Shown in pieces: positions 58,962-64,000 of a DNA stretch of 64,000 nucleotides (positions are counted from its first letter, which is position 1; the number at the start of each line of letters is the position of its first letter). The DNA is from Parcubacteria group bacterium GW2011_GWA1_56_13. Lineage in GTDB: Bacteria > Patescibacteriota > Minisyncoccia > Phycocordibacterales > Phycocordibacteraceae. The notes below the pieces were generated by a model. It saw only the letters and a list, made by a program, of their open reading frames with translations. It searched no databases and was not told the origin of the DNA. The stretch lies in assembly GCA_001004905.1 (NCBI GenBank), contig LCRY01000003.1:24830-88829 (forward strand), given 5' to 3'. The translations under genes and the position numbers were made by a program.

Positions 58962-60431
58962 ATGTATCGGCTGGTGCTGTATTATGTGCTCGCATTATTC
59001 GCTTCGGCAGTGATTTTCAGCACCGTCGGCGCCTTGCCGTACGCGCCAGCAGAGCTTCTGTGGTCGGCGGGAGTATTCCTGGCAGCGTCATGGCTCGCGA
59101 ATATGTGTTTCGCGCGGATATGCAGGGCGGTGACCAATGCGGAATCCGTCTATATCACGGCGCTCATTCTGGCGCTCATCGTGACGCCGACGACTTTCTC
59201 CGATATAACCGGTTCCTCCGTGCTTGCCGTCATCGCGGTGTTGGCGATGGCGTCCAAATATGTTCTCGCGATAGGGAAGAAGCACCTGTTCAACCCTGCG
59301 GCAGCTGCGGTGGTGATATCGGGATTTGTTTTCGGCCTACCGGCGAGCTGGTGGGCCGCAGAGCACCCCGTCCTCCTTCCATTCATTATCGTGGGCGGCC
59401 TCCTCATTGTGCGCAAATTGCGGACGTACGACCTCGTGCTTGCTTTCGCCACCGCTGCTCTCGCAGTTACCGCGCTTCTGTCATCCGATCTTCTTGCTGA
59501 AGTCCGGGCGTTATTCCTCGAGTCGGCATTTTTTTATTTCGGGTTCGTTATGCTTACGGAACCGCTGACCATGCCGCCGACGCGCGCGCTTCGCATAGGG
59601 TACGGCGCGCTGGTCGGCGCGTTTTTCGTCCCGGTCGCGCACATCGGTTCGTTCTATTTTTCTCCCGAACTGGCGCTTGTCACGGGCAACTTGTTTTCGT
59701 ATATCGTGAGTCCGAAAGGTCGGTACATGCTTTCCTTCATCGGACGTCGTCCGCTTGCGAGCGGCATACACGAGTATCTTTTCCGAAGCGACCGGCCTTT
59801 GCGTTTCCGGGCGGGACAATACCTTGAATGGACGATCCGCACGCTGCAATCCGACGCGCGCGGGAACCGCCGCTTCTTCACCATCGCGTCGGCACCCGAG
59901 GACGAGACGCTTGCGCTCGGCGTGCGTTTTTATGAAAGGCCGAGTGCGTTCAAACGAGCACTGGCGAAACTCCTCGCAGGAGCGGTGGTTTCAACTTCTT
60001 CGCCTGCAGGCGATTTTACGATGCCCAAGGACACGCAGCGGAAACTCGCCCTCATCGCAGGCGGTATCGGCGTTACGCCTTTCGCCAGTATGGCGAGGCA
60101 CTGCATCGCCGCGAGCGAACGGCGGGATGCAGTATTGCTGTACGCCAGCCGGACCTCGGCGGAGGTCGCCTATCAGGACGTTTTCGCGCGCGCTGCAGGG
60201 CTCGGCTGGCGCGCGGTCTACGCGGTTTCAGAAGAGGTGCCGGCTTCTTCTGGCGTGCGTACAGGGACCATAGATGCGGCGTTCATCAAAAGGGAAGTTG
60301 CCGATTACCATGAGCGGATTTTTTATATTTCAGGCCCGCCCGGGATGGTTGATGGCATCAAGCGTATTCTCCGTGGTCTCGGCATATCGCGTTTCTCCAT
60401 AAAAACCGACTTCTTCCCGGGCCTTGTCTAG
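58962..60431 (+). CDS. Fusion of a polytopic membrane domain with a ferredoxin-NADP-reductase-type FAD/NAD(P)-binding domain.
   Basis: C-terminal RFFTIAS (the RxYS-type FAD motif) and GGIGVTPF (NAD motif). N-terminal ~230 aa with 6-7 TM helices. Start could instead be at 58896. Confidence 0.65.
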   Translation: MYRLVLYYVLALFASAVIFSTVGALPYAPAELLWSAGVFLAASWLANMCFARICRAVTNAESVYITALILALIVTPTTFSDITGSSVLAVIAVLAMASKYVLAIGKKHLFNPAAAAVVISGFVFGLPASWWAAEHPVLLPFIIVGGLLIVRKLRTYDLVLAFATAALAVTALLSSDLLAEVRALFLESAFFYFGFVMLTEPLTMPPTRALRIGYGALVGAFFVPVAHIGSFYFSPELALVTGNLFSYIVSPKGRYMLSFIGRRPLASGIHEYLFRSDRPLRFRAGQYLEWTIRTLQSDARGNRRFFTIASAPEDETLALGVRFYERPSAFKRALAKLLAGAVVSTSSPAGDFTMPKDTQRKLALIAGGIGVTPFASMARHCIAASERRDAVLLYASRTSAEVAYQDVFARAAGLGWRAVYAVSEEVPASSGVRTGTIDAAFIKREVADYHERIFYISGPPGMVDGIKRILRGLGISRFSIKTDFFPGLV

Positions 60432-60499
60432 CATTGTCTCGAAGGGATGGTTTTGTTACTGTCTTTGTATCGCTGGCGGTGTGTAGGCATACGTCAGCG

Positions 60500-60646
60500 G
60501 CGTTCGGAGAAAATGCTTACACGAGGACGTGCAGTCATTTTTCCTCGCTCGCTGGCGTAAGCGTTGATTGCACGCTTTCGTTCAGCTCGCTCGGAGAACA
60601 TGCGTGTGCGAAGACGCATCCGCATATTTCCTCGCTCGCTGGCGTA
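60500..60646 (+). repeat. Tandem ~86-87-bp duplication of the tRNA upstream region plus the first ~10 nt of the tRNA.
   Basis: tcggagaaaatgc...ttcctcgctcgctggcgtaag (60504-60561) is repeated as tcggagaacatgc...ttcctcgctcgctggcgtagc (60591-60646). The second copy continues into the tRNA. Confidence 0.65.
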
Positions 60647-60711
60647 GCTCAGGTAGTTAGAGCATGGCATTCATAAAGCCAAGGTCGAAGGTGCAAGTCC
60701 TTCCGCCAGCA
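60638..60711 (+). tRNA. tRNA-Met-like (anticodon CAT) with an atypical T-loop; possibly degenerate.
   Basis: Acceptor GCTGGCG/CGCCAGC pairs perfectly; D stem GCTC/GAGC; anticodon loop TTCATAA with a 31.39 A.A mismatch; T stem GAAGG/CCTTC with loop TGCAAGT (G at position 54). No CCA. Confidence 0.55.
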
Positions 60712-60796
60712 CTTGAATTCAATGGGAAACTTACAAACTTGAACGTTTGTGTGGATGAACAATGGTTATAGTAATATCCTGTCATAAACTGTGTAG

Positions 60797-61483
60797 ATGC
60801 CCATACGCCGTGAACTAGATCAGGATTTTTTTAAGAAATGGTCGCCGCAAATGGCGTACGTGTTAGGATTTTTTGCGGCTGACGACTCCATGCTAAAGAA
60901 TCGTCGGGGTAGCCATTACATTGAATTCACGGTTACCGATAAAAGTGTCTTAGAACAGATACGGGAAGCAATCGGTTCGACGAATCGTATAGCAGAGCGG
61001 AAGCGGATTAGTAAACAAAAAGCAGTGTATCGCTTACAAATTGGCAGCAAAGAATGGTTTAAGGACTTGTCGTGTCTCGGTTTTATGCAAAACAAAAGTA
61101 AAAGACTTGCGTTGCCTGTTATACCCGCAAAATATTTTGGAGATTTTGTACGCGGATATTTCGACGGAGATGGGTGTGTGTATTTCAATCGCCTGAAATA
61201 TGCGGACCGCAAAAATCCTCGCTGGATACTAATGACACTTTTCACTAGCGGATGCCAATTATTTCTCAATTCACTTTGGACCGAACTCAAGATTCGAGGC
61301 ATCCACGGCGGTTCATTAAAGCGCAAAACACGTGGCTTTGAGCTTTGTTTCAGCCATAAAGACAGCGTTGCGCTCTACCGCGTCATGTATCATACTGGAA
61401 AAGCGCCTGAATTATGGCTGCCTCGTAAGCGGAGAAAGATCGAGGAAGCGATTCGGCAGTTAAATCTTGCGGTCGTGGTGTAG
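60797..61483 (+). CDS. LAGLIDADG homing endonuclease (double-motif, single-chain type).
   Basis: Two LAGLIDADG-type motifs: LGFFAADDS and RGYFDGDGCVY. 228 aa, AT-richer than the host. The last 15 nt overlap tRNA-Asp. Confidence 0.85.
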   Translation: MPIRRELDQDFFKKWSPQMAYVLGFFAADDSMLKNRRGSHYIEFTVTDKSVLEQIREAIGSTNRIAERKRISKQKAVYRLQIGSKEWFKDLSCLGFMQNKSKRLALPVIPAKYFGDFVRGYFDGDGCVYFNRLKYADRKNPRWILMTLFTSGCQLFLNSLWTELKIRGIHGGSLKRKTRGFELCFSHKDSVALYRVMYHTGKAPELWLPRKRRKIEEAIRQLNLAVVV

Positions 61484-61543
61484 CCTGGTTAACACGTCTC
61501 CCTGTCACGGAGAAGATCGTGGGTTCAAATCCCATCGACCGCG
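61469..61543 (+). tRNA. tRNA-Asp (anticodon GTC).
   Basis: Acceptor GCGGTCG/CGACCGC; D stem GTGT/ACAC; anticodon stem TCTCC/GGAGA with loop CTGTCAC; T arm GTGGG-TTCAAAT-CCCAT; discriminator G. No CCA. Confidence 0.75.
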
Positions 61544-61686
61544 CAATCAGCGAAATCCGGGGAACGGCCTATTTTGTGTTATGAGCGGGTTTCGACTCCT
61601 GACCAAGCCCGTCCCTCGCGCAAATAACCGTAGATTGGTTCAAAAATGGCTGTCCATAGGGCAGTCATTTTTGTTATAGTTGACGT

Positions 61687-62268
61687 ATGAAAGGAGGACC
61701 CGAGGGACCAAAAAATAATACTGACAGGGTGCCGGAGCCAAGATTTCCTCAAAGAGCTGAAGAGATAGGGCGAATGTTTGCCGTAGATCAAGACATGCGG
61801 GGGAAAAGTCTTCAGGATGATTCTGTTTGGGATGAGGAAGTCGATAGCAAAAATACCGAGGCAATGAAGCAGATTGTCGCAGAGATTGGATGGCCGACTG
61901 TATCTAAAGTTGGCAAGGAGGCATCTCACGCCGCTTGGCTCTTGGTTCAGCATGCAGATCATGATCCAAAGTTTCAACAAGAGTGCCTCGCTCTGATGAA
62001 GCAGGAATCAGAGAGTGAAGTAAGCCCTGTCGATATTGCTTATCTCGAAGATCGAATACGAGTCAATACAGGTCAGGGTCAGGTATACGGAACGCAATTT
62101 CATGAGACGAGAGATGGGGAAGGCAACATTGTCCAATATGGACCCCGACCAATAGAAGATCCAGAACATATCGACGAAAGGCGGGCGAAAGTAGGCCTTC
62201 AACCACATGCCGAGTATTTAAGATCTCTCACAGAAAAGTATTATCCTCATCTGTTAAAGAAGGAATAA
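61687..62268 (+). CDS. Hypothetical protein in an AT-richer segment.
   Basis: 193 aa, acidic. No family recognised with confidence. Confidence 0.45.
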   Translation: MKGGPEGPKNNTDRVPEPRFPQRAEEIGRMFAVDQDMRGKSLQDDSVWDEEVDSKNTEAMKQIVAEIGWPTVSKVGKEASHAAWLLVQHADHDPKFQQECLALMKQESESEVSPVDIAYLEDRIRVNTGQGQVYGTQFHETRDGEGNIVQYGPRPIEDPEHIDERRAKVGLQPHAEYLRSLTEKYYPHLLKKE

Positions 62269-62344
62269 GAATCACATCTTTCTGACTCTCCCGTATCTTA
62301 GTTCCAACAGCGTCCACAAGATTGCGCAAAACAAGAAAGTCGGA

Positions 62345-62557
62345 TCAACCCCGATCCCTTAGGAGGCCACGCAGACCGTAGAGCAGGATCGAAAACCAGA
62401 TCAAAAACGAGCCAAGACCTACGACAAAGAACGTGGCTGCTATTTTGAAATATATTTCTGAAGGGGGGTGAGGACCCCAGATAAAGGAGAGGACCAAGCT
62501 TGCGCACCCTGCGAGACAGATGAAGAATATGCGTACAGTTAGCCGCTCCAACATACT
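62345..62557 (-). CDS. Possible small two-TM membrane protein.
   Basis: Hydrophobic helices (IFFICLAGCASLVLSFIW; FFVVGLGSFLIWFSILLYGL). Start uncertain. Confidence 0.3.
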   Translation of the reverse strand, partial: SMLERLTVRIFFICLAGCASLVLSFIWGPHPPSEIYFKIAATFFVVGLGSFLIWFSILLYGLRGLLRDRG

Positions 62558-63118: not shown

Positions 63119-63194
63119 GCCGAGATAGCTCAGTTGGTAGAGCACGTCCATGGTAAGGACGAGGTCGTCGGTTCAATCCCGACTCTCGGCTCCA
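63119..63194 (+). tRNA. tRNA-Thr (anticodon GGT).
   Basis: GCCGAGATAGCTCAGTTGGTAGAGCACGTCCATGGTAAGGACGAGGTCGTCGGTTCAATCCCGACTCTCGGCTCCA. All four stems pair canonically; encoded CCA. Confidence 0.85.
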
Positions 63195-64000
63195 GTTTCA
63201 AAGTCAGGTCAGTTTCGCCGTCAGAAAATTTCGCGGCGCGGAGCGCCGCATAGGGGGAATGCGCATTTCCGCGCGCTTCGCGCGCGTGAGGGAGGTTCAG
63301 AAATACAAAATCCGAAAATTTTTGGAGGGAGGATTCAAGACGCGAAGCGTCCGAAATCCAATTCCTGACAGGTTCAACCCACGCGGCAGGGGCTCGTTCG
63401 AGACGGACGATTTGTTCCTCAATCGTCTTACGCTCGCTCATTAGCGAACGACGGCGGGACAAGTACTCTTCGCGCTCCAAATCCTCGGCGACATACAAGT
63501 CCGTTAGCCGAGCGTGCGTGCGGGAGATTGCCGCAGCCTTCTCCCGCAGATCTTGAACGGCCTCTGCCGCCGTTTTAGAGGCGTCAGTAGCATCTCTATC
63601 TATCAGTGCAGACAGTGGCGATACCCATTCTTTAGGCATAGCGTACTCGCCGAGAAGCGCCGAAAGTTGCGAATCCAATAATTCGCTTCGTATCGGCGCT
63701 TCGGTACATTTAACCGCTTTAGATTTCCGCGTACAGCGGTAATAGGTATAGAGGTGAATATTGCCGTTCTTTTGGTGTTTCTCTTTCTTCTCGGCCGTGA
63801 TGCTCATACCGCAGGAGCAACGGAGTAAGCCGCAATACGGGCTCGGATCATCCTTGATGTCCGGCACGCGACCGCGACTGTGCAGAACGATATTCGCCTT
63901 ATCAAAAAATTCCTTTGAAACGATAAGTTCGTGTTTCCCCTCGTACACTTCGCCCGCGTAGCGGAAGTGGCCGTAGTAGAACGGGTTTTGGAGATAGAAC
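63130..64000 (-). CDS. Large serine recombinase (partial; recombinase and zinc-ribbon domains plus coiled-coil; catalytic N-terminus lies beyond the window end).
   Basis: Zinc beta-ribbon YCGLLRCSCG...YYRCTRK and recombinase-domain segment HELIVSKEFFDKANIVL. The open frame runs to the window edge. The C-terminal tail is read antisense through tRNA-Thr. Confidence 0.7.
   Translation of the reverse strand, partial: FYLQNPFYYGHFRYAGEVYEGKHELIVSKEFFDKANIVLHSRGRVPDIKDDPSPYCGLLRCSCGMSITAEKKEKHQKNGNIHLYTYYRCTRKSKAVKCTEAPIRSELLDSQLSALLGEYAMPKEWVSPLSALIDRDATDASKTAAEAVQDLREKAAAISRTHARLTDLYVAEDLEREEYLSRRRSLMSERKTIEEQIVRLERAPAAWVEPVRNWISDASRLESSLQKFSDFVFLNLPHAREARGNAHSPYAALRAAKFSDGETDLTLKLEPRVGIEPTTSSLPWTCSTN

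What the first reader, a model, noticed from the sequence alone, without database searches (positions are those of the whole stretch)
60470..61543. LAGLIDADG homing endonuclease wedged between a tRNA-Met-like gene and tRNA-Asp, overlapping the tRNA-Asp 5' end by 15 nt
A 228-aa double-motif LAGLIDADG endonuclease (60797-61483), AT-richer than the host, lies 85 nt after an atypical tRNA(CAT) whose T-loop is non-canonical (TGCAAGT). Its stop codon sits inside the acceptor/D-stem of tRNA-Asp(GTC) (61469-61543). Free-standing or intron-borne homing endonucleases typically target conserved RNA genes. Here the ORF terminates within a tRNA, which could mean one of three things: the tRNA sequence is part of the homing site, the endonuclease sits in a degenerate intron or intein-less insertion in a tRNA cluster, or the upstream tRNA-Met-like gene was damaged by the insertion. 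That upstream gene has an odd T-loop, an anticodon-stem mismatch and a tandem 87-bp leader duplication.
Basis: partly seen in the sequence, partly recalled or inferred. Interest (0 to 1): 0.65.

Follow-up and report, generated by a model that had tools for sequence, protein, structure and literature searches.

The report
Free-standing homing endonuclease guarding tRNA-Asp
A selfish DNA-cutting enzyme gene sits just in front of the aspartate tRNA gene in this and hundreds of other ultra-small (Patescibacteria) bacteria, and in relatives it almost always comes with a self-splicing intron in that tRNA, which may explain how introns reported to have no mobility gene of their own still spread.

Summary
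tRNA(CAT) lies at 60638-60712, a 228-aa double-motif LAGLIDADG ORF at 60797-61483, and tRNA-Asp(GTC) at 61469-61543, with the ORF's TAG inside the tRNA.

It is not a one-off. The ORF family sits directly upstream of tRNA-Asp in every one of about 80 Patescibacteria species loci that had downstream sequence. In 56 of 76 intact copies the stop codon lies inside the tRNA.

Close relatives with the same synteny lack the ORF. There tRNA(CAT) and tRNA-Asp are 61-174 nt apart, so this is an insertion.

In relatives the downstream tRNA-Asp often carries the 35/36 group I intron described in 2026 as HEG-less. In an unselected metagenome sample, the intron and the endonuclease gene co-occur: 12/13 loci with the intron carry it, against 2/67 without (p≈2e-11).

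A conserved 22-bp mimic of the tRNA-Asp D-loop-to-anticodon-loop sequence lies just upstream of the ATG, at 60763-60785 in the window.

Best reading: a free-standing homing endonuclease cassette that targets tRNA-Asp. Immunity comes from the intron in relatives. In the window it may come from a divergent intron-less tRNA-Asp allele.

The oddities of the upstream tRNA are lineage traits, not damage. Cleavage itself is untested. The window copy uniquely has G30D next to the catalytic Asp.

The parts
60470..60646 (+). Two copies of a tRNA 5'-leader module (repeat copies 60501-60559 and 60588-60646, spacing 87 nt). Each ends in TCGCTGGCG(TA), the first bases of tRNA(CAT).
   Evidence: the repeat finder family D1, 76% identity. 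The same leader motif (..TTCGGAGAAnAT-hairpin-TTTCCTCGCT) precedes tRNA genes in L207, L209, L110 and L111, and part of the duplication is shared with L207. It is therefore old and not caused by the ORF insertion.
60638..60712 (+). tRNA(CAU), elongator type (G1-C72). Whether it is Met or Ile2 is not resolved. It forms the left flank of the insertion site.
   Evidence: ARAGORN and Rfam 61.6 bits. The non-canonical T-loop UGCAAGU and A31.A39 are conserved in orthologues from HEG+ and HEG- loci.
60763..60785 (+). Upstream element TGGTTAT-agtaatatc-CTGTCAT. It mimics, or is a relic of, the tRNA-Asp D-loop (TGGTTAG) + 9 nt + anticodon loop (CTGTCAC). It ends 11 nt before the ATG.
   Evidence: The consensus a.TGGTTAG..tAAT.TcCTGTCAcgtg.TAtaaT aligns in register with tRNA-Asp. 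A match with <=2/13 mismatches occurs in 42/79 HEG+ loci, against 0/279 control windows, 1/1580 shuffles and 0/67 empty sites. In L068 the same position holds a full tRNA-Asp 5' half.
60797..61483 (+). Free-standing LAGLIDADG homing endonuclease gene (228 aa). Its last 4 codons and the TAG are encoded by tRNA-Asp bases 1-15.
   Evidence: Pfam PF14528 at 1.8e-11. AF2 model pLDDT 87, pTM 0.87, with two alpha-beta-beta-alpha-beta-beta-alpha domains. Foldseek top hits are I-Tsp061I, bI3, I-AniI and I-OnuI. There are 2581 homologues. dN/dS is 0.06-0.13.
60857..60889 (+). LAGLIDADG motif 1 (YVLGFFAADDS). The catalytic D29 codon is 60881-60883. The unique D30 (GAC) at 60884-60886 stands where 85/86 homologues have Gly.
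   Evidence: Column counts over 86 intact homologues: D29 86/86; position 30 is G in 85 and D in 1, the window. The identical protein is found on 11 contigs.
61145..61177 (+). LAGLIDADG motif 2 (FVRGYFDGDGC), with catalytic D125.
   Evidence: R119-G126 are invariant in 86/86 homologues.
61469..61543 (+). tRNA-Asp(GUC), intron-less 'type B' allele (D-stem GUGU/ACAC).
   Evidence: ARAGORN and Rfam 67.6 bits. It is 100% identical to the tRNA-Asp of HEG+ relative L207, but a different allele from that of L207's HEG-less sister L209.
61486..61508 (+). Putative recognition stretch inside tRNA-Asp: TGGTTAA-cacgtctcc-CTGTCAC. Relatives carry the group I intron between 61505 and 61506 (tRNA positions 35/36). 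The window deviates from the canonical TGGTTAG.
   Evidence: The site regex fails for the window. Among HEG+ loci, a canonical site goes with the intron in 22/29, and a deviant site with the intron in 8/49. The role as a recognition site is inferred, not shown.
61641..61673 (+). Terminator-like hairpin followed by a T-rich tail. It probably marks the end of the tRNA(CAT)-HEG-tRNA-Asp transcription unit.
   Evidence: scan_promoters_terminators: 15 pairs, 6 GC. Inverted repeat I1. This is a consensus match only.

Best explanation
The ORF is a free-standing (not intron- or intein-borne) monomeric LAGLIDADG homing endonuclease gene. It belongs to a cassette that lives immediately 5' of the single tRNA-Asp(GUC) gene in many Patescibacteria.

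Shown:
- The ancestral arrangement is tRNA(CAT) - short spacer - tRNA-Asp.
- The cassette (tRNA-Asp-like upstream element + ORF) fills that spacer and butts onto tRNA-Asp so tightly that the tRNA supplies the stop codon.
- Presence or absence differs between close relatives.
- Decayed and deleted copies exist.
- The protein is under strong purifying selection, with invariant catalytic residues.
- In relatives the ORF co-occurs almost one-to-one with an ORF-less group I intron at position 35/36 of the adjacent tRNA-Asp.

Inferred:
- The enzyme recognises the tRNA-Asp gene from the D-loop to the anticodon loop (about 22 bp, TGGTTAG-N9-CTGTCAC) in genomes that lack the cassette, and cuts there.
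- The break is repaired from a cassette-bearing copy. This copies in the ORF together with the linked tRNA-Asp allele (intronless homing with marker exclusion).
- The carrier is immune in one of two ways. Either the group I intron splits the site (collaborative or trans homing, which also mobilises the intron), or, as in this window and L207, the linked tRNA-Asp is a divergent intron-less allele (TGGTTAA, different D and anticodon stems).
- The upstream mimic, which overlaps -10-like boxes in relatives, is a non-cleavable binding site (autorepression operator) or a relic of an old tRNA-Asp half.
- Because the stop codon lies inside the mature tRNA, RNase P processing would leave a non-stop mRNA. 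That would keep enzyme levels low.

The window's copy carries a unique G30D change beside the catalytic Asp and may be weakened.
For: Family membership and fold.

Universal linkage to tRNA-Asp: all of about 80 species loci with downstream sequence. The stop codon lies inside the tRNA in 56/76, in all three frames, and is TAG in 52/56.

Empty sites:
- tRNA(CAT) lies 0-75 nt upstream of tRNA-Asp in about 29 of 67 HEG-less loci.
- In the syntenic filled/empty pair L207/L209, host proteins are 77-89% identical. Homology breaks exactly at the tRNA(CAT) 3' end and resumes at the tRNA-Asp 3' end, and the tRNA-Asp allele is swapped.
- L211 is a second empty site.

Decay series: premature stops in L016, L033, L036 and L057. 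Partial remnants in L143, L160, L166, L203 and L154.

Intron: Rfam RF00028 hits in L062 and L007. Exact exon reconstruction at 35/36 succeeded in 27 of the 30 interrupted loci tested. Self-splicing of such introns is shown in PMC13011429.

Association: 12/1 against 2/65 after dereplication, p=2e-11.

Immunity pattern: canonical site with intron 22/29, deviant site with intron 8/49, p=2e-7. Within the window's HEG clade, 7 loci have a type-A tRNA-Asp plus intron, and 2 (window, L207) have type B without intron.

Upstream mimic.

Purifying selection.

Precedents, all in review PMC2988022: SegB, intronless homing, marker exclusion, and the I-TevI operator (15/20 identical to its homing site). mobE trans homing is in PMC2790892.
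Against: - No cleavage, binding or expression data exist. The recognition site is inferred only from sequence mimicry and co-occurrence.
- At least 8 loci (L015, L018, L039, L048, L050, L053, L064, L189) have an intact ORF next to an uninterrupted canonical TGGTTAG-N9-CTGTCAC site. L015's site is identical to the spliced exon of intron-bearing L025. A simple 'cuts every canonical site' rule is therefore wrong. Specificity must involve further positions, the enzyme must be tightly repressed, or the true target lies elsewhere.
- The type-B tRNA-Asp also exists without the ORF (L213), so it is not strictly cassette-borne.
- About half of the family (distant clades) lacks the upstream mimic.
- The Fisher tests are not phylogenetically corrected.
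- The window has no consensus promoter and carries G30D, so this copy may be inactive.
- Strong long-term purifying selection is also what a domesticated gene would show.
Confidence: 0.6

Rival explanations
1. Same mobile cassette, different target. The enzyme cuts the empty tRNA(CAT)-tRNA-Asp spacer or the tRNA-Asp 5' junction (its own insertion point), not the anticodon-loop region. The group I intron merely hitch-hikes by co-conversion because it lies about 45 bp from the ORF. The upstream tRNA-Asp-like element is just a promoter or a relic.
For: The ORF butts exactly onto tRNA-Asp base 1 in most loci. Intact ORFs coexist with uninterrupted canonical anticodon-region sites in at least 8 loci. 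The co-conversion block in L207 against L209 spans the whole spacer plus the tRNA. Trans homing of a defunct intron by a neighbouring free-standing HEG is documented (PMC2790892).
Against: Spacers of empty sites are not conserved between lineages. They make a poor target for a family spread across classes. In distant clades the left neighbour is not even tRNA(CAT). This reading does not explain why a 22-bp copy of the D-loop-to-anticodon-loop sequence with exact spacing is kept upstream of the ATG. Nor does it explain why deviant tRNA-Asp alleles go without the intron.
Confidence: 0.2
2. A domesticated LAGLIDADG protein with a host function tied to tRNA-Asp. Examples are a splicing cofactor (maturase) for the tRNA-Asp intron or other group I introns, or a DNA-binding regulator of the tRNA operon. 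On this reading it is inherited mainly vertically.
For: dN/dS is 0.06-0.13 over deep divergence. The family is very wide (2581 homologues, 488+ species loci). It has a fixed genomic position. It is tightly associated with the intron. Structural neighbours include the bI3 maturase and the bifunctional I-AniI.
Against: Both catalytic Asp residues and the surrounding motifs are invariant in 86/86 copies; that is not needed for a maturase. The intron persists next to decayed or deleted ORFs (L016, L143, L160, L203, L154). A Patescibacteria tRNA-Asp 35/36 intron (from a Microgenomatia genome) self-splices in vitro without protein (PMC13011429). More than half of the ORF-bearing loci have no intron. 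Close relatives lack the gene entirely. The ORF is AT-richer than its host.
Confidence: 0.12
3. The window's copy is a catalytically dead or dying endonuclease gene. It is retained because the cassette displaced the native tRNA-Asp promoter, so tRNA-Asp transcription now has to run through it.
For: There is a unique G30D at a position that is Gly in 85/86 homologues, directly after the catalytic D29. In the window the -10-like boxes of the upstream element are degenerate and no consensus promoter is found. HEG-less relatives have a conserved TTTTGGTAGGAT promoter-like motif just upstream of tRNA-Asp; HEG+ loci lack it. Embedded promoters are a known retention mechanism for free-standing HEGs (PMC2988022).
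Against: The ORF is intact and full length. The protein is identical on 11 contigs from several samples. All other conserved residues are kept. The effect of G30D is unknown.
Confidence: 0.25
4. One reading: the ORF sits in a degenerate intron, or its insertion damaged the upstream tRNA-Met-like gene.
For: The odd T-loop, the anticodon-stem mismatch and the leader repeat are real.
Against: No intron model hit covers the ORF. Both flanking tRNAs are complete and score 61-68 bits. The same tRNA(CAT) peculiarities occur in HEG-less loci.
Confidence: 0.02

Closest known systems
Phage T4 SegB and other free-standing seg/mob endonucleases (intronless homing, marker exclusion)
   Same: A free-standing HEG inserted between two tRNA genes, with its target in the tRNA region of HEG-less relatives. 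It is inherited together with flanking markers by gene conversion. Promoter embedding favours retention (PMC2988022).
   Different: SegB is a GIY-YIG enzyme in a lytic phage. Here the enzyme is a LAGLIDADG in bacterial chromosomes and is linked to one particular tRNA (Asp) across a whole phylum. Its stop codon lies inside the tRNA, and a target-like element lies upstream.
Collaborative or trans homing: F-CphI with the cyanophage psbA intron; mobE with the T4 nrdB (I-TevIII) intron
   Same: A free-standing HEG lies beside a gene whose ORF-less or defunct group I intron interrupts or neighbours the target. The intron gives immunity and is mobilised in trans (PMC2790892 and PMC6083498, listed; the Bonocora-Shub model is from my own knowledge).
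   Different: The known cases are in phage protein-coding genes and use HNH or EndoVII-like enzymes. This is a cellular tRNA gene with a LAGLIDADG enzyme. The HEG and the intron are separated only by the 35-nt tRNA 5' exon. An alternative intron-free immunity state (a divergent tRNA allele) coexists, and that is the state in this window.
Group I introns at position 35/36 of Patescibacteria tRNA-Asp and tRNA-Asn (Nakagawa et al. 2026, PMC13011429)
   Same: The relatives of this locus carry exactly this intron: U35|C36, 196-243 nt, ORF-less.
   Different: That paper looked for HEGs only inside introns longer than 500 bp. It concluded that tRNA introns mostly lack HEGs and have limited mobility. 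It does not mention the LAGLIDADG gene immediately upstream of tRNA-Asp. The window's own tRNA-Asp has no intron.
Archaeal and CPR rRNA-intron LAGLIDADG endonucleases (I-Tsp061I, I-DmoI type; PMC11270868)
   Same: Monomeric two-motif LAGLIDADG_3 fold of about 200-230 aa. The best sequence and structure match is I-Tsp061I.
   Different: Similarity is only remote (E=0.0017, 17% identity). Those enzymes are intron-encoded in rRNA genes. This one is free-standing and tRNA-linked.
I-TevI autorepression operator
   Same: A sequence resembling the homing site overlaps promoter elements just upstream of the endonuclease ORF (15/20 identity for I-TevI; PMC2988022).
   Different: Here binding and repression are untested. 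The element could instead be a decayed tRNA-Asp 5' half, as L068 suggests.

Membership tests
LAGLIDADG homing endonuclease (monomeric, two-motif) | Two LAGLIDADG motifs, each ending in a catalytic acidic residue | tested here: met
   Motif 1 is ..GFFAAD29(D30)S and motif 2 is ..GYFDGD125G. D29 and D125 are invariant in 86/86 homologues. Caveat: the window has D30 where 85/86 have Gly.
LAGLIDADG homing endonuclease (monomeric, two-motif) | Profile match above the curated threshold | tested here: met
   PF14528 at 44.6 bits, against a cutoff of 22.5.
LAGLIDADG homing endonuclease (monomeric, two-motif) | Pseudo-dimeric alpha-beta-beta-alpha-beta-beta-alpha x2 fold | tested here: met
   AF2 pLDDT 87, pTM 0.87, with the expected secondary-structure order. 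Foldseek probability is 1.00 to I-Tsp061I, I-AniI, I-OnuI and I-SceI.
LAGLIDADG homing endonuclease (monomeric, two-motif) | Site-specific cleavage of a roughly 20-bp DNA target | not testable with these tools
   Only an inferred target exists (TGGTTAG-N9-CTGTCAC in tRNA-Asp).
Free-standing HEG / intronless homing | The ORF is not inside an intron or intein | tested here: met
   No Rfam intron hit in 60300-61800 at E<=10. The ORF lies between two complete tRNA genes.
Free-standing HEG / intronless homing | Presence/absence polymorphism at the same site in close relatives | tested here: met
   L207 (filled) against L209 and L211 (empty) share the same synteny, with host proteins 73-89% identical. 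65 empty clusters were found in metagenomes.
Free-standing HEG / intronless homing | Co-conversion of flanking markers with the HEG | tested here: inconclusive
   The tRNA-Asp allele swaps together with the ORF between L207 and L209. L207's tRNA-Asp is 100% identical to the window's despite 62% host-protein identity. However, type B also occurs without the ORF in L213.
Free-standing HEG / intronless homing | HEG life cycle: intact, degenerate and lost copies all occur | tested here: met
   Premature stops in L016, L033, L036 and L057. Remnants in L143, L160, L166, L203 and L154.
Collaborative / trans homing (free-standing HEG plus ORF-less group I intron) | An ORF-less self-splicing intron in the gene next to the HEG | tested here: not met
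   The window's tRNA-Asp is uninterrupted. The feature is met in relatives: 30 of about 78 HEG+ species loci, including the window's nearest HEG relatives L007, L206, L008, L010, L011 and L012.
Collaborative / trans homing (free-standing HEG plus ORF-less group I intron) | Non-random co-occurrence of HEG and intron | tested here: met
   12/1 against 2/65, Fisher p=2e-11, in a sample not selected for either feature. Not phylogenetically corrected.
Collaborative / trans homing (free-standing HEG plus ORF-less group I intron) | The endonuclease cuts the intron-less allele at or near the intron insertion site, and the intron confers resistance | not testable with these tools
   Indirect evidence only: the upstream mimic contains an uninterrupted CTGT|CAC, and a canonical site goes with the intron. 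Counter-examples include L015.
   both flanks are whole tRNAs.
Canonical bacterial elongator tRNA (upstream CAT gene) | Cloverleaf with a T-loop of the T54-Psi55-C56 type | tested here: not met
   The cloverleaf scores 61.6 bits, but the T-loop is U54-G55-C56 (UGCAAGU). The deviation is conserved in at least 10 lineages, with and without the ORF. It is therefore a functional lineage variant rather than a pseudogene.

The most novel reading that the evidence does not exclude
A phylum-wide selfish module consists of three parts: (1) a free-standing LAGLIDADG endonuclease gene fused onto the 5' end of the essential tRNA-Asp gene; (2) a tRNA-Asp-derived target mimic that acts as its operator; and (3) either a protective self-splicing intron at 35/36 or a resistant tRNA-Asp allele. 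This module drives horizontal replacement of tRNA-Asp genes across Patescibacteria. It is the missing mobility engine of the supposedly HEG-less tRNA-Asp introns. It also provides natural snapshots of every step of the proposed pathway by which endonucleases and group I introns become associated. RNase P processing would double as a non-stop-mRNA brake on endonuclease expression.
Probability: 0.35. Interest if true: 0.8.

Novelty: new variant of a known kind. Interest (0 to 1): 0.68.

Why it matters
Group I introns in Patescibacteria tRNA-Asp were reported in 2026 as lacking homing endonucleases and therefore nearly immobile. This locus family shows that a LAGLIDADG endonuclease gene sits 13-25 nt upstream of the intron's 5' splice site, outside the intron, in nearly every intron-bearing tRNA-Asp sampled.

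If the enzyme cuts intron-less tRNA-Asp genes, several things follow.
- It would be, as far as I could find, the first cellular (non-phage), tRNA-gene example of collaborative or trans homing, and one that uses a LAGLIDADG enzyme.
- It would explain intron persistence in extremely reduced genomes without invoking a regulatory benefit.
- It would explain part of the unusual diversity of tRNA-Asp alleles, as an arms race with the enzyme.
- It would offer hundreds of natural variants (HEG only, HEG plus intron, intron plus HEG remnant, empty) for testing how mobile introns originate.
- It would supply a set of compact monomeric meganucleases with a defined, highly conserved 22-bp target.

It also flags an annotation trap. 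The ORF's stop codon lies in the tRNA, and tRNA-Asp is missed by standard tools when the intron is present.

Tried and rejected
- **Intron models over the ORF region.** An Rfam search at E<=10 found nothing but the two tRNAs and noise. The 'ORF inside an intron' idea was rejected.
- **Tandem Repeats Finder on 60000-62000.** It returned no array. The leader repeat is seen only by the repeat finder.
- **Consensus sigma-70 promoter scan of 60400-61750.** It returned none. Transcription signals in the window stay unresolved.
- **tblastn of the protein against the whole window.** No second copy was found. There is no rRNA gene in the window to test for rRNA-intron copies.
- **Sequence search of the PDB.** It gave only a remote hit (2dch, E=0.0017), so no target could be transferred from a characterised enzyme.
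- **Syntenic relatives through the upstream FNR-like gene.** L208, L210 and L212 had no tRNA locus downstream and were uninformative.
- **'The cassette always brings the type-B tRNA-Asp.'** Weakened by L213, which has type B, no ORF and a native promoter.
- **'Any canonical TGGTTAG-N9-CTGTCAC site next to an intact ORF must carry the intron.'** Rejected because of L015, L018, L039, L048, L050, L053, L064 and L189.
- **'The upstream element is a complete old tRNA-Asp 5' half.'** True only in L068. In the consensus, similarity is limited to about 28 nt, and no matching 3' half lies downstream in L068.
- **Published intron-bearing complete genomes (GCA_001029755.1, GCA_023898525.1).** I tried to see whether they have the ORF upstream. 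The supplement gives only the tRNA and intron sequences, so this could not be tested.
- **Met versus Ile2 identity of the upstream tRNA(CAU).** Not resolved from sequence.
Full report
**1. What is in the window**

ARAGORN and Rfam agree on two complete tRNA genes: tRNA(CAT) at 60638-60712 (61.6 bits) and tRNA-Asp(GTC) at 61469-61543 (67.6 bits). Between them runs a 228-codon ORF, 60797-61483. It matches Pfam LAGLIDADG_3 above threshold.

The ORF's TAG (61481-61483) is U13-A14-G15 of tRNA-Asp, so the overlap is 15 nt. The ORF is AT-richer than its surroundings, GC about 0.42-0.43 against 0.58.

- T-loop UGCAAGU and an A31.A39 mismatch.
- Two 59-nt leader copies 87 nt apart, ending in the first 9 nt of the tRNA.

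No group I or II intron model hits the region at E<=10. The window holds no rRNA gene and no second LAGLIDADG copy.

The organism is a Candidatus Kaiserbacteria (Patescibacteria/CPR) genome. The identical protein is on 11 contigs, including GCA_001005015.1 and GCA_003531405.1.

**2. The protein**

An AlphaFold model built on 32 homologues (pLDDT 87, pTM 0.87) shows two alpha-beta-beta-alpha-beta-beta-alpha domains. Foldseek finds monomeric LAGLIDADG enzymes first: I-Tsp061I, bI3, I-AniI and I-OnuI. By sequence, the only PDB relative is I-Tsp061I at E=0.0017.

Across 86 intact homologues, several residues are invariant: the catalytic D29 and D125, K100, G24, A28 and R119-G126. Position 30 is Gly in 85 and Asp only in the window.

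dN/dS for 15 pairs is 0.06-0.13, although dS is near saturation.

**3. The arrangement is conserved, not accidental**

The family has 2581 database members.

In the best 80 loci (41-74% identity; Kaiser-, Lloyd-, Zambryski-, Lipton-, Moran-, Nomura-, Wolfe-, Campbell-, Daviesbacteria and others), a tRNA-Asp 5' end lies at or just after the ORF end in every locus that has downstream sequence.

In 56 of 76 intact copies the stop codon lies inside the tRNA. The overlap is 10 nt in 31 loci (UAG at tRNA 8-10), 15 nt in 14 (including the window), and 21-24 nt in 8. All three frames are used, and TAG is the stop in 52 of 56. The other copies stop 1-110 nt before the tRNA.

A tRNA(CAT) lies 2-220 nt upstream in roughly 50 loci. 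In distant clades the left neighbour differs. The constant partner is therefore tRNA-Asp.

**4. It is an insertion, and it comes and goes**

A metagenome scan used only the tRNA-Asp 5' half (GCGGNNGTAGCTCAACTGGTTAGAGC), so it was unselected for the ORF. It gave 120 loci. Most lack the ORF. In those, tRNA(CAT) typically sits 0-75 nt upstream of tRNA-Asp.

Using the upstream FNR-like gene as an anchor, I found relatives with the window's synteny:

| Locus | ORF | tRNA-Asp | Notes |
|---|---|---|---|
| L207 | present (73% identical to the window's) | identical to the window's | same ..LNLAVVV* ORF end |
| L209 | absent | different allele ('type A') | same sample as L207; 174-nt spacer; FNR 77% and 2-Hacid_dh 89% identical to L207 |
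| L211 | absent | type A | second empty site |
| L213 | absent | type B, near-identical to the window's | native-looking promoter |

In the three-way alignment, homology between filled and empty loci breaks immediately after tRNA(CAT) and resumes immediately after tRNA-Asp.

Decay stages also exist. Premature stops occur in L016, L033, L036 and L057. Partial remnants occur in L143, L160, L166 and L087. L203 and L154 keep only the last ~40 nt of the ORF.

**5. The intron connection**

In 30 of the 80 species loci, ARAGORN missed tRNA-Asp because the gene is interrupted after CCUGU. Matching the 3' exon (CAC + stem + T-arm + acceptor) defines ORF-less introns of 196-243 nt between U35 and C36 in 27 of them. 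Rfam's group I model scores above gathering in L062 and L007.

These are the 35/36 introns described by Nakagawa et al. 2026, who showed self-splicing in vitro. They searched for HEGs only inside long introns and concluded that tRNA introns mostly lack HEGs and have limited mobility. They do not mention an upstream LAGLIDADG gene. The CPR rRNA-intron LAGLIDADG paper does not mention tRNAs either.

In the unselected metagenome sample, restricted to loci with at least 750 nt upstream and dereplicated into 80 clusters:

| | ORF or remnant | No ORF |
|---|---|---|
| Intron present | 12 | 1 |
| Intron absent | 2 | 65 |

Fisher p=2e-11.

On a neighbour-joining tree of the proteins, the intron state is clustered but needs at least 18 changes.

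Within the window's own clade there are two states. L007, L206, L008, L010, L011, L012 and L170 have a type-A tRNA-Asp plus the intron. The window and L207 have a type-B tRNA-Asp without it.

**6. A target-like element upstream of the ATG**

Between tRNA(CAT) and the start codon, about half of the family carries the element a.TGGTTAG..tAAT.Tc-CTGTCAc-gtg.TAtaaT. It typically ends 12-23 nt before the ATG. In the window it is 60763-60785 (TGGTTAT agtaatatc CTGTCAT).

It aligns in register with the tRNA-Asp D-loop TGGTTAG, 9 nt, and the anticodon loop CTGTCAC. That is 22-23 bp, the size of a LAGLIDADG site. The middle is replaced by -10-like boxes.

A match with <=2 of 13 mismatches occurs in 42/79 ORF-bearing loci. 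It occurs in 0/279 control windows, 1/1580 shuffles and 0/67 empty sites.

In L068 the same position holds an entire type-B tRNA-Asp 5' half, while the functional gene downstream is a different type.

The precedent is I-TevI. Its operator overlaps its promoter and matches its homing site at 15/20 positions (PMC2988022).

**7. Immunity pattern**

Among ORF-bearing loci, a spliced tRNA-Asp with the exact GGTTAG-N9-CTGTCA carries the intron in 22 of 29. Deviant alleles (GGTTAA, shortened or lengthened D-loops, other types) carry it in 8 of 49 (p=2e-7, uncorrected). The window's tRNA-Asp is deviant (TGGTTAA).

There are counter-examples. Eight loci have an intact ORF, a canonical site and no intron. 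One is L015, whose site equals the spliced exon of intron-bearing L025.

**8. Interpretation**

The evidence best fits a free-standing LAGLIDADG homing endonuclease cassette that homes to the tRNA-Asp locus. This is intronless homing with co-conversion of the linked tRNA-Asp allele, as for the T4 seg genes. SegB sits between T4 tRNA genes.

Carriers would be protected in one of two ways:
- By the 35/36 intron, which would be mobilised in trans. This is the collaborative or trans homing known from the phage pairs mobE/I-TevIII and F-CphI/psbA.
- By a divergent tRNA-Asp allele, as in this window.

What is shown: family membership and fold, the fixed linkage to tRNA-Asp, filled and empty sites, the decay series, the intron association, and the upstream mimic.

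What is inferred: the cleavage target, the direction of conversion, the operator function, and the idea that RNase P cleavage at tRNA-Asp +1 would strip the stop codon and limit expression.

HEG-less relatives have a conserved TTTTGGTAGGAT promoter-like motif before tRNA-Asp, and the cassette displaces it. Transcription of the essential tRNA may therefore now depend on the cassette. Embedded promoters are a known retention device.

The unique G30D and the absence of a recognisable promoter leave open that the window's copy is weakened.

**9.

The UGCAAGU T-loop and the 31.39 mismatch recur in orthologous tRNA(CAT) genes of many lineages. These include empty sites (L088, L092, L117, L158, L209, L211).

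The leader repeat consists of a hairpin module that precedes several tRNA genes in this lineage. It is partly shared with L207. Neither feature is damage from the insertion.

**10. Verdict**

It is a new variant of a known kind: free-standing HEG, or collaborative homing. It bears directly on a 2026 claim about intron immobility. The main gap is the lack of any biochemical evidence for the target.

Noticed in passing
window 63119-63194 (tRNA-Thr GGT) and 63130-63948 (-); also 61650-62550: A 272-aa ORF with a serine-recombinase C-terminal region runs antisense into tRNA-Thr. Sister assemblies carry a full 492-518 aa Resolvase/Recombinase/Zn-ribbon gene here (L002, L003, L005), while L001 lacks it. 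The stretch between tRNA-Asp and tRNA-Thr (DUF6624 and cupin genes) is AT-richer, GC 0.46-0.50. This may be an integrated element at tRNA-Thr with strain-level variation.
   Followed up: no
window 60470-60646; L207 3340-3435; L209 5560-5648 and 5850-5899; L110, L111: A conserved tRNA 5'-leader module (..G(C/T)TCGGAGAAnAT - hairpin - (A)TTTCCTCGCT) lies immediately before tRNA genes in this Kaiserbacteria-like lineage. In the window it is present twice before tRNA(CAT), which is the '87-bp duplication'. Its function (promoter, processing signal) is unknown.
   Followed up: partly
window 60688-60698; L007, L008, L014, L015, L020, L021, L061, L085, L088, L092, L117, L158; also L013, L019, L076, L081: Non-canonical T-loops are conserved across lineages. 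They include U54-G55-C56 (GGUGCAAGUCC) in tRNA(CAU), variants such as GGAUCGUUCCC and GGUCCGAUUCC, and GGGGUCAGCACCC in some tRNA-Asp genes. They lack the universal U55 (pseudouridine-55 position). This suggests altered T-loop/D-loop tertiary contacts or modification in these bacteria.
   Followed up: partly
L141, L181, L201 (spacers before tRNA-Asp); L117, L194 (after tRNA(CAT)): Empty and filled sites often contain partial, degenerate duplicates of the tRNA-Asp 5' end or the tRNA(CAT) 3' end in the spacer. One example is GCGGTCGTAGCTCAACTCAAATTAGAC... with a truncated anticodon loop. They look like scars of repeated imprecise recombination or repair at this locus.
   Followed up: no
L115, L145, L153, L178: tRNA-His(GUG) genes in some metagenomic contigs share the first 26 nt (acceptor 5' strand and D-arm) exactly with the type-A tRNA-Asp pattern. 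They were picked up by the tRNA-Asp 5'-half search and were excluded from the counts.
   Followed up: no
L068 2941-2996: A nearly complete type-B tRNA-Asp 5' half (GCAGCCGTGGTGTAGCCCGGTTAACACAACATCCTGTCAT) sits directly upstream of the endonuclease ATG. The functional tRNA-Asp downstream is a different type (GGGCCGG...). No matching 3' half was found downstream.
   Followed up: partly
L209 5790-5815, L211 2925-2960 (rc), L213 5700-5724, L111: HEG-less loci share a promoter-like motif (GACATTTTnAAnGGATTTTGGTAGGATG) 10-100 nt upstream of tRNA-Asp. HEG-bearing loci lack it.
   Followed up: partly
relatives L054, L090, L171, L177, L067 and others (upstream of the ORF): In many relatives an extended -10 box TGGTATAAT ends 6 nt before the ATG and no Shine-Dalgarno sequence is visible. 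This suggests a leaderless mRNA for the endonuclease. The window's copy of this box is degenerate.
   Followed up: no
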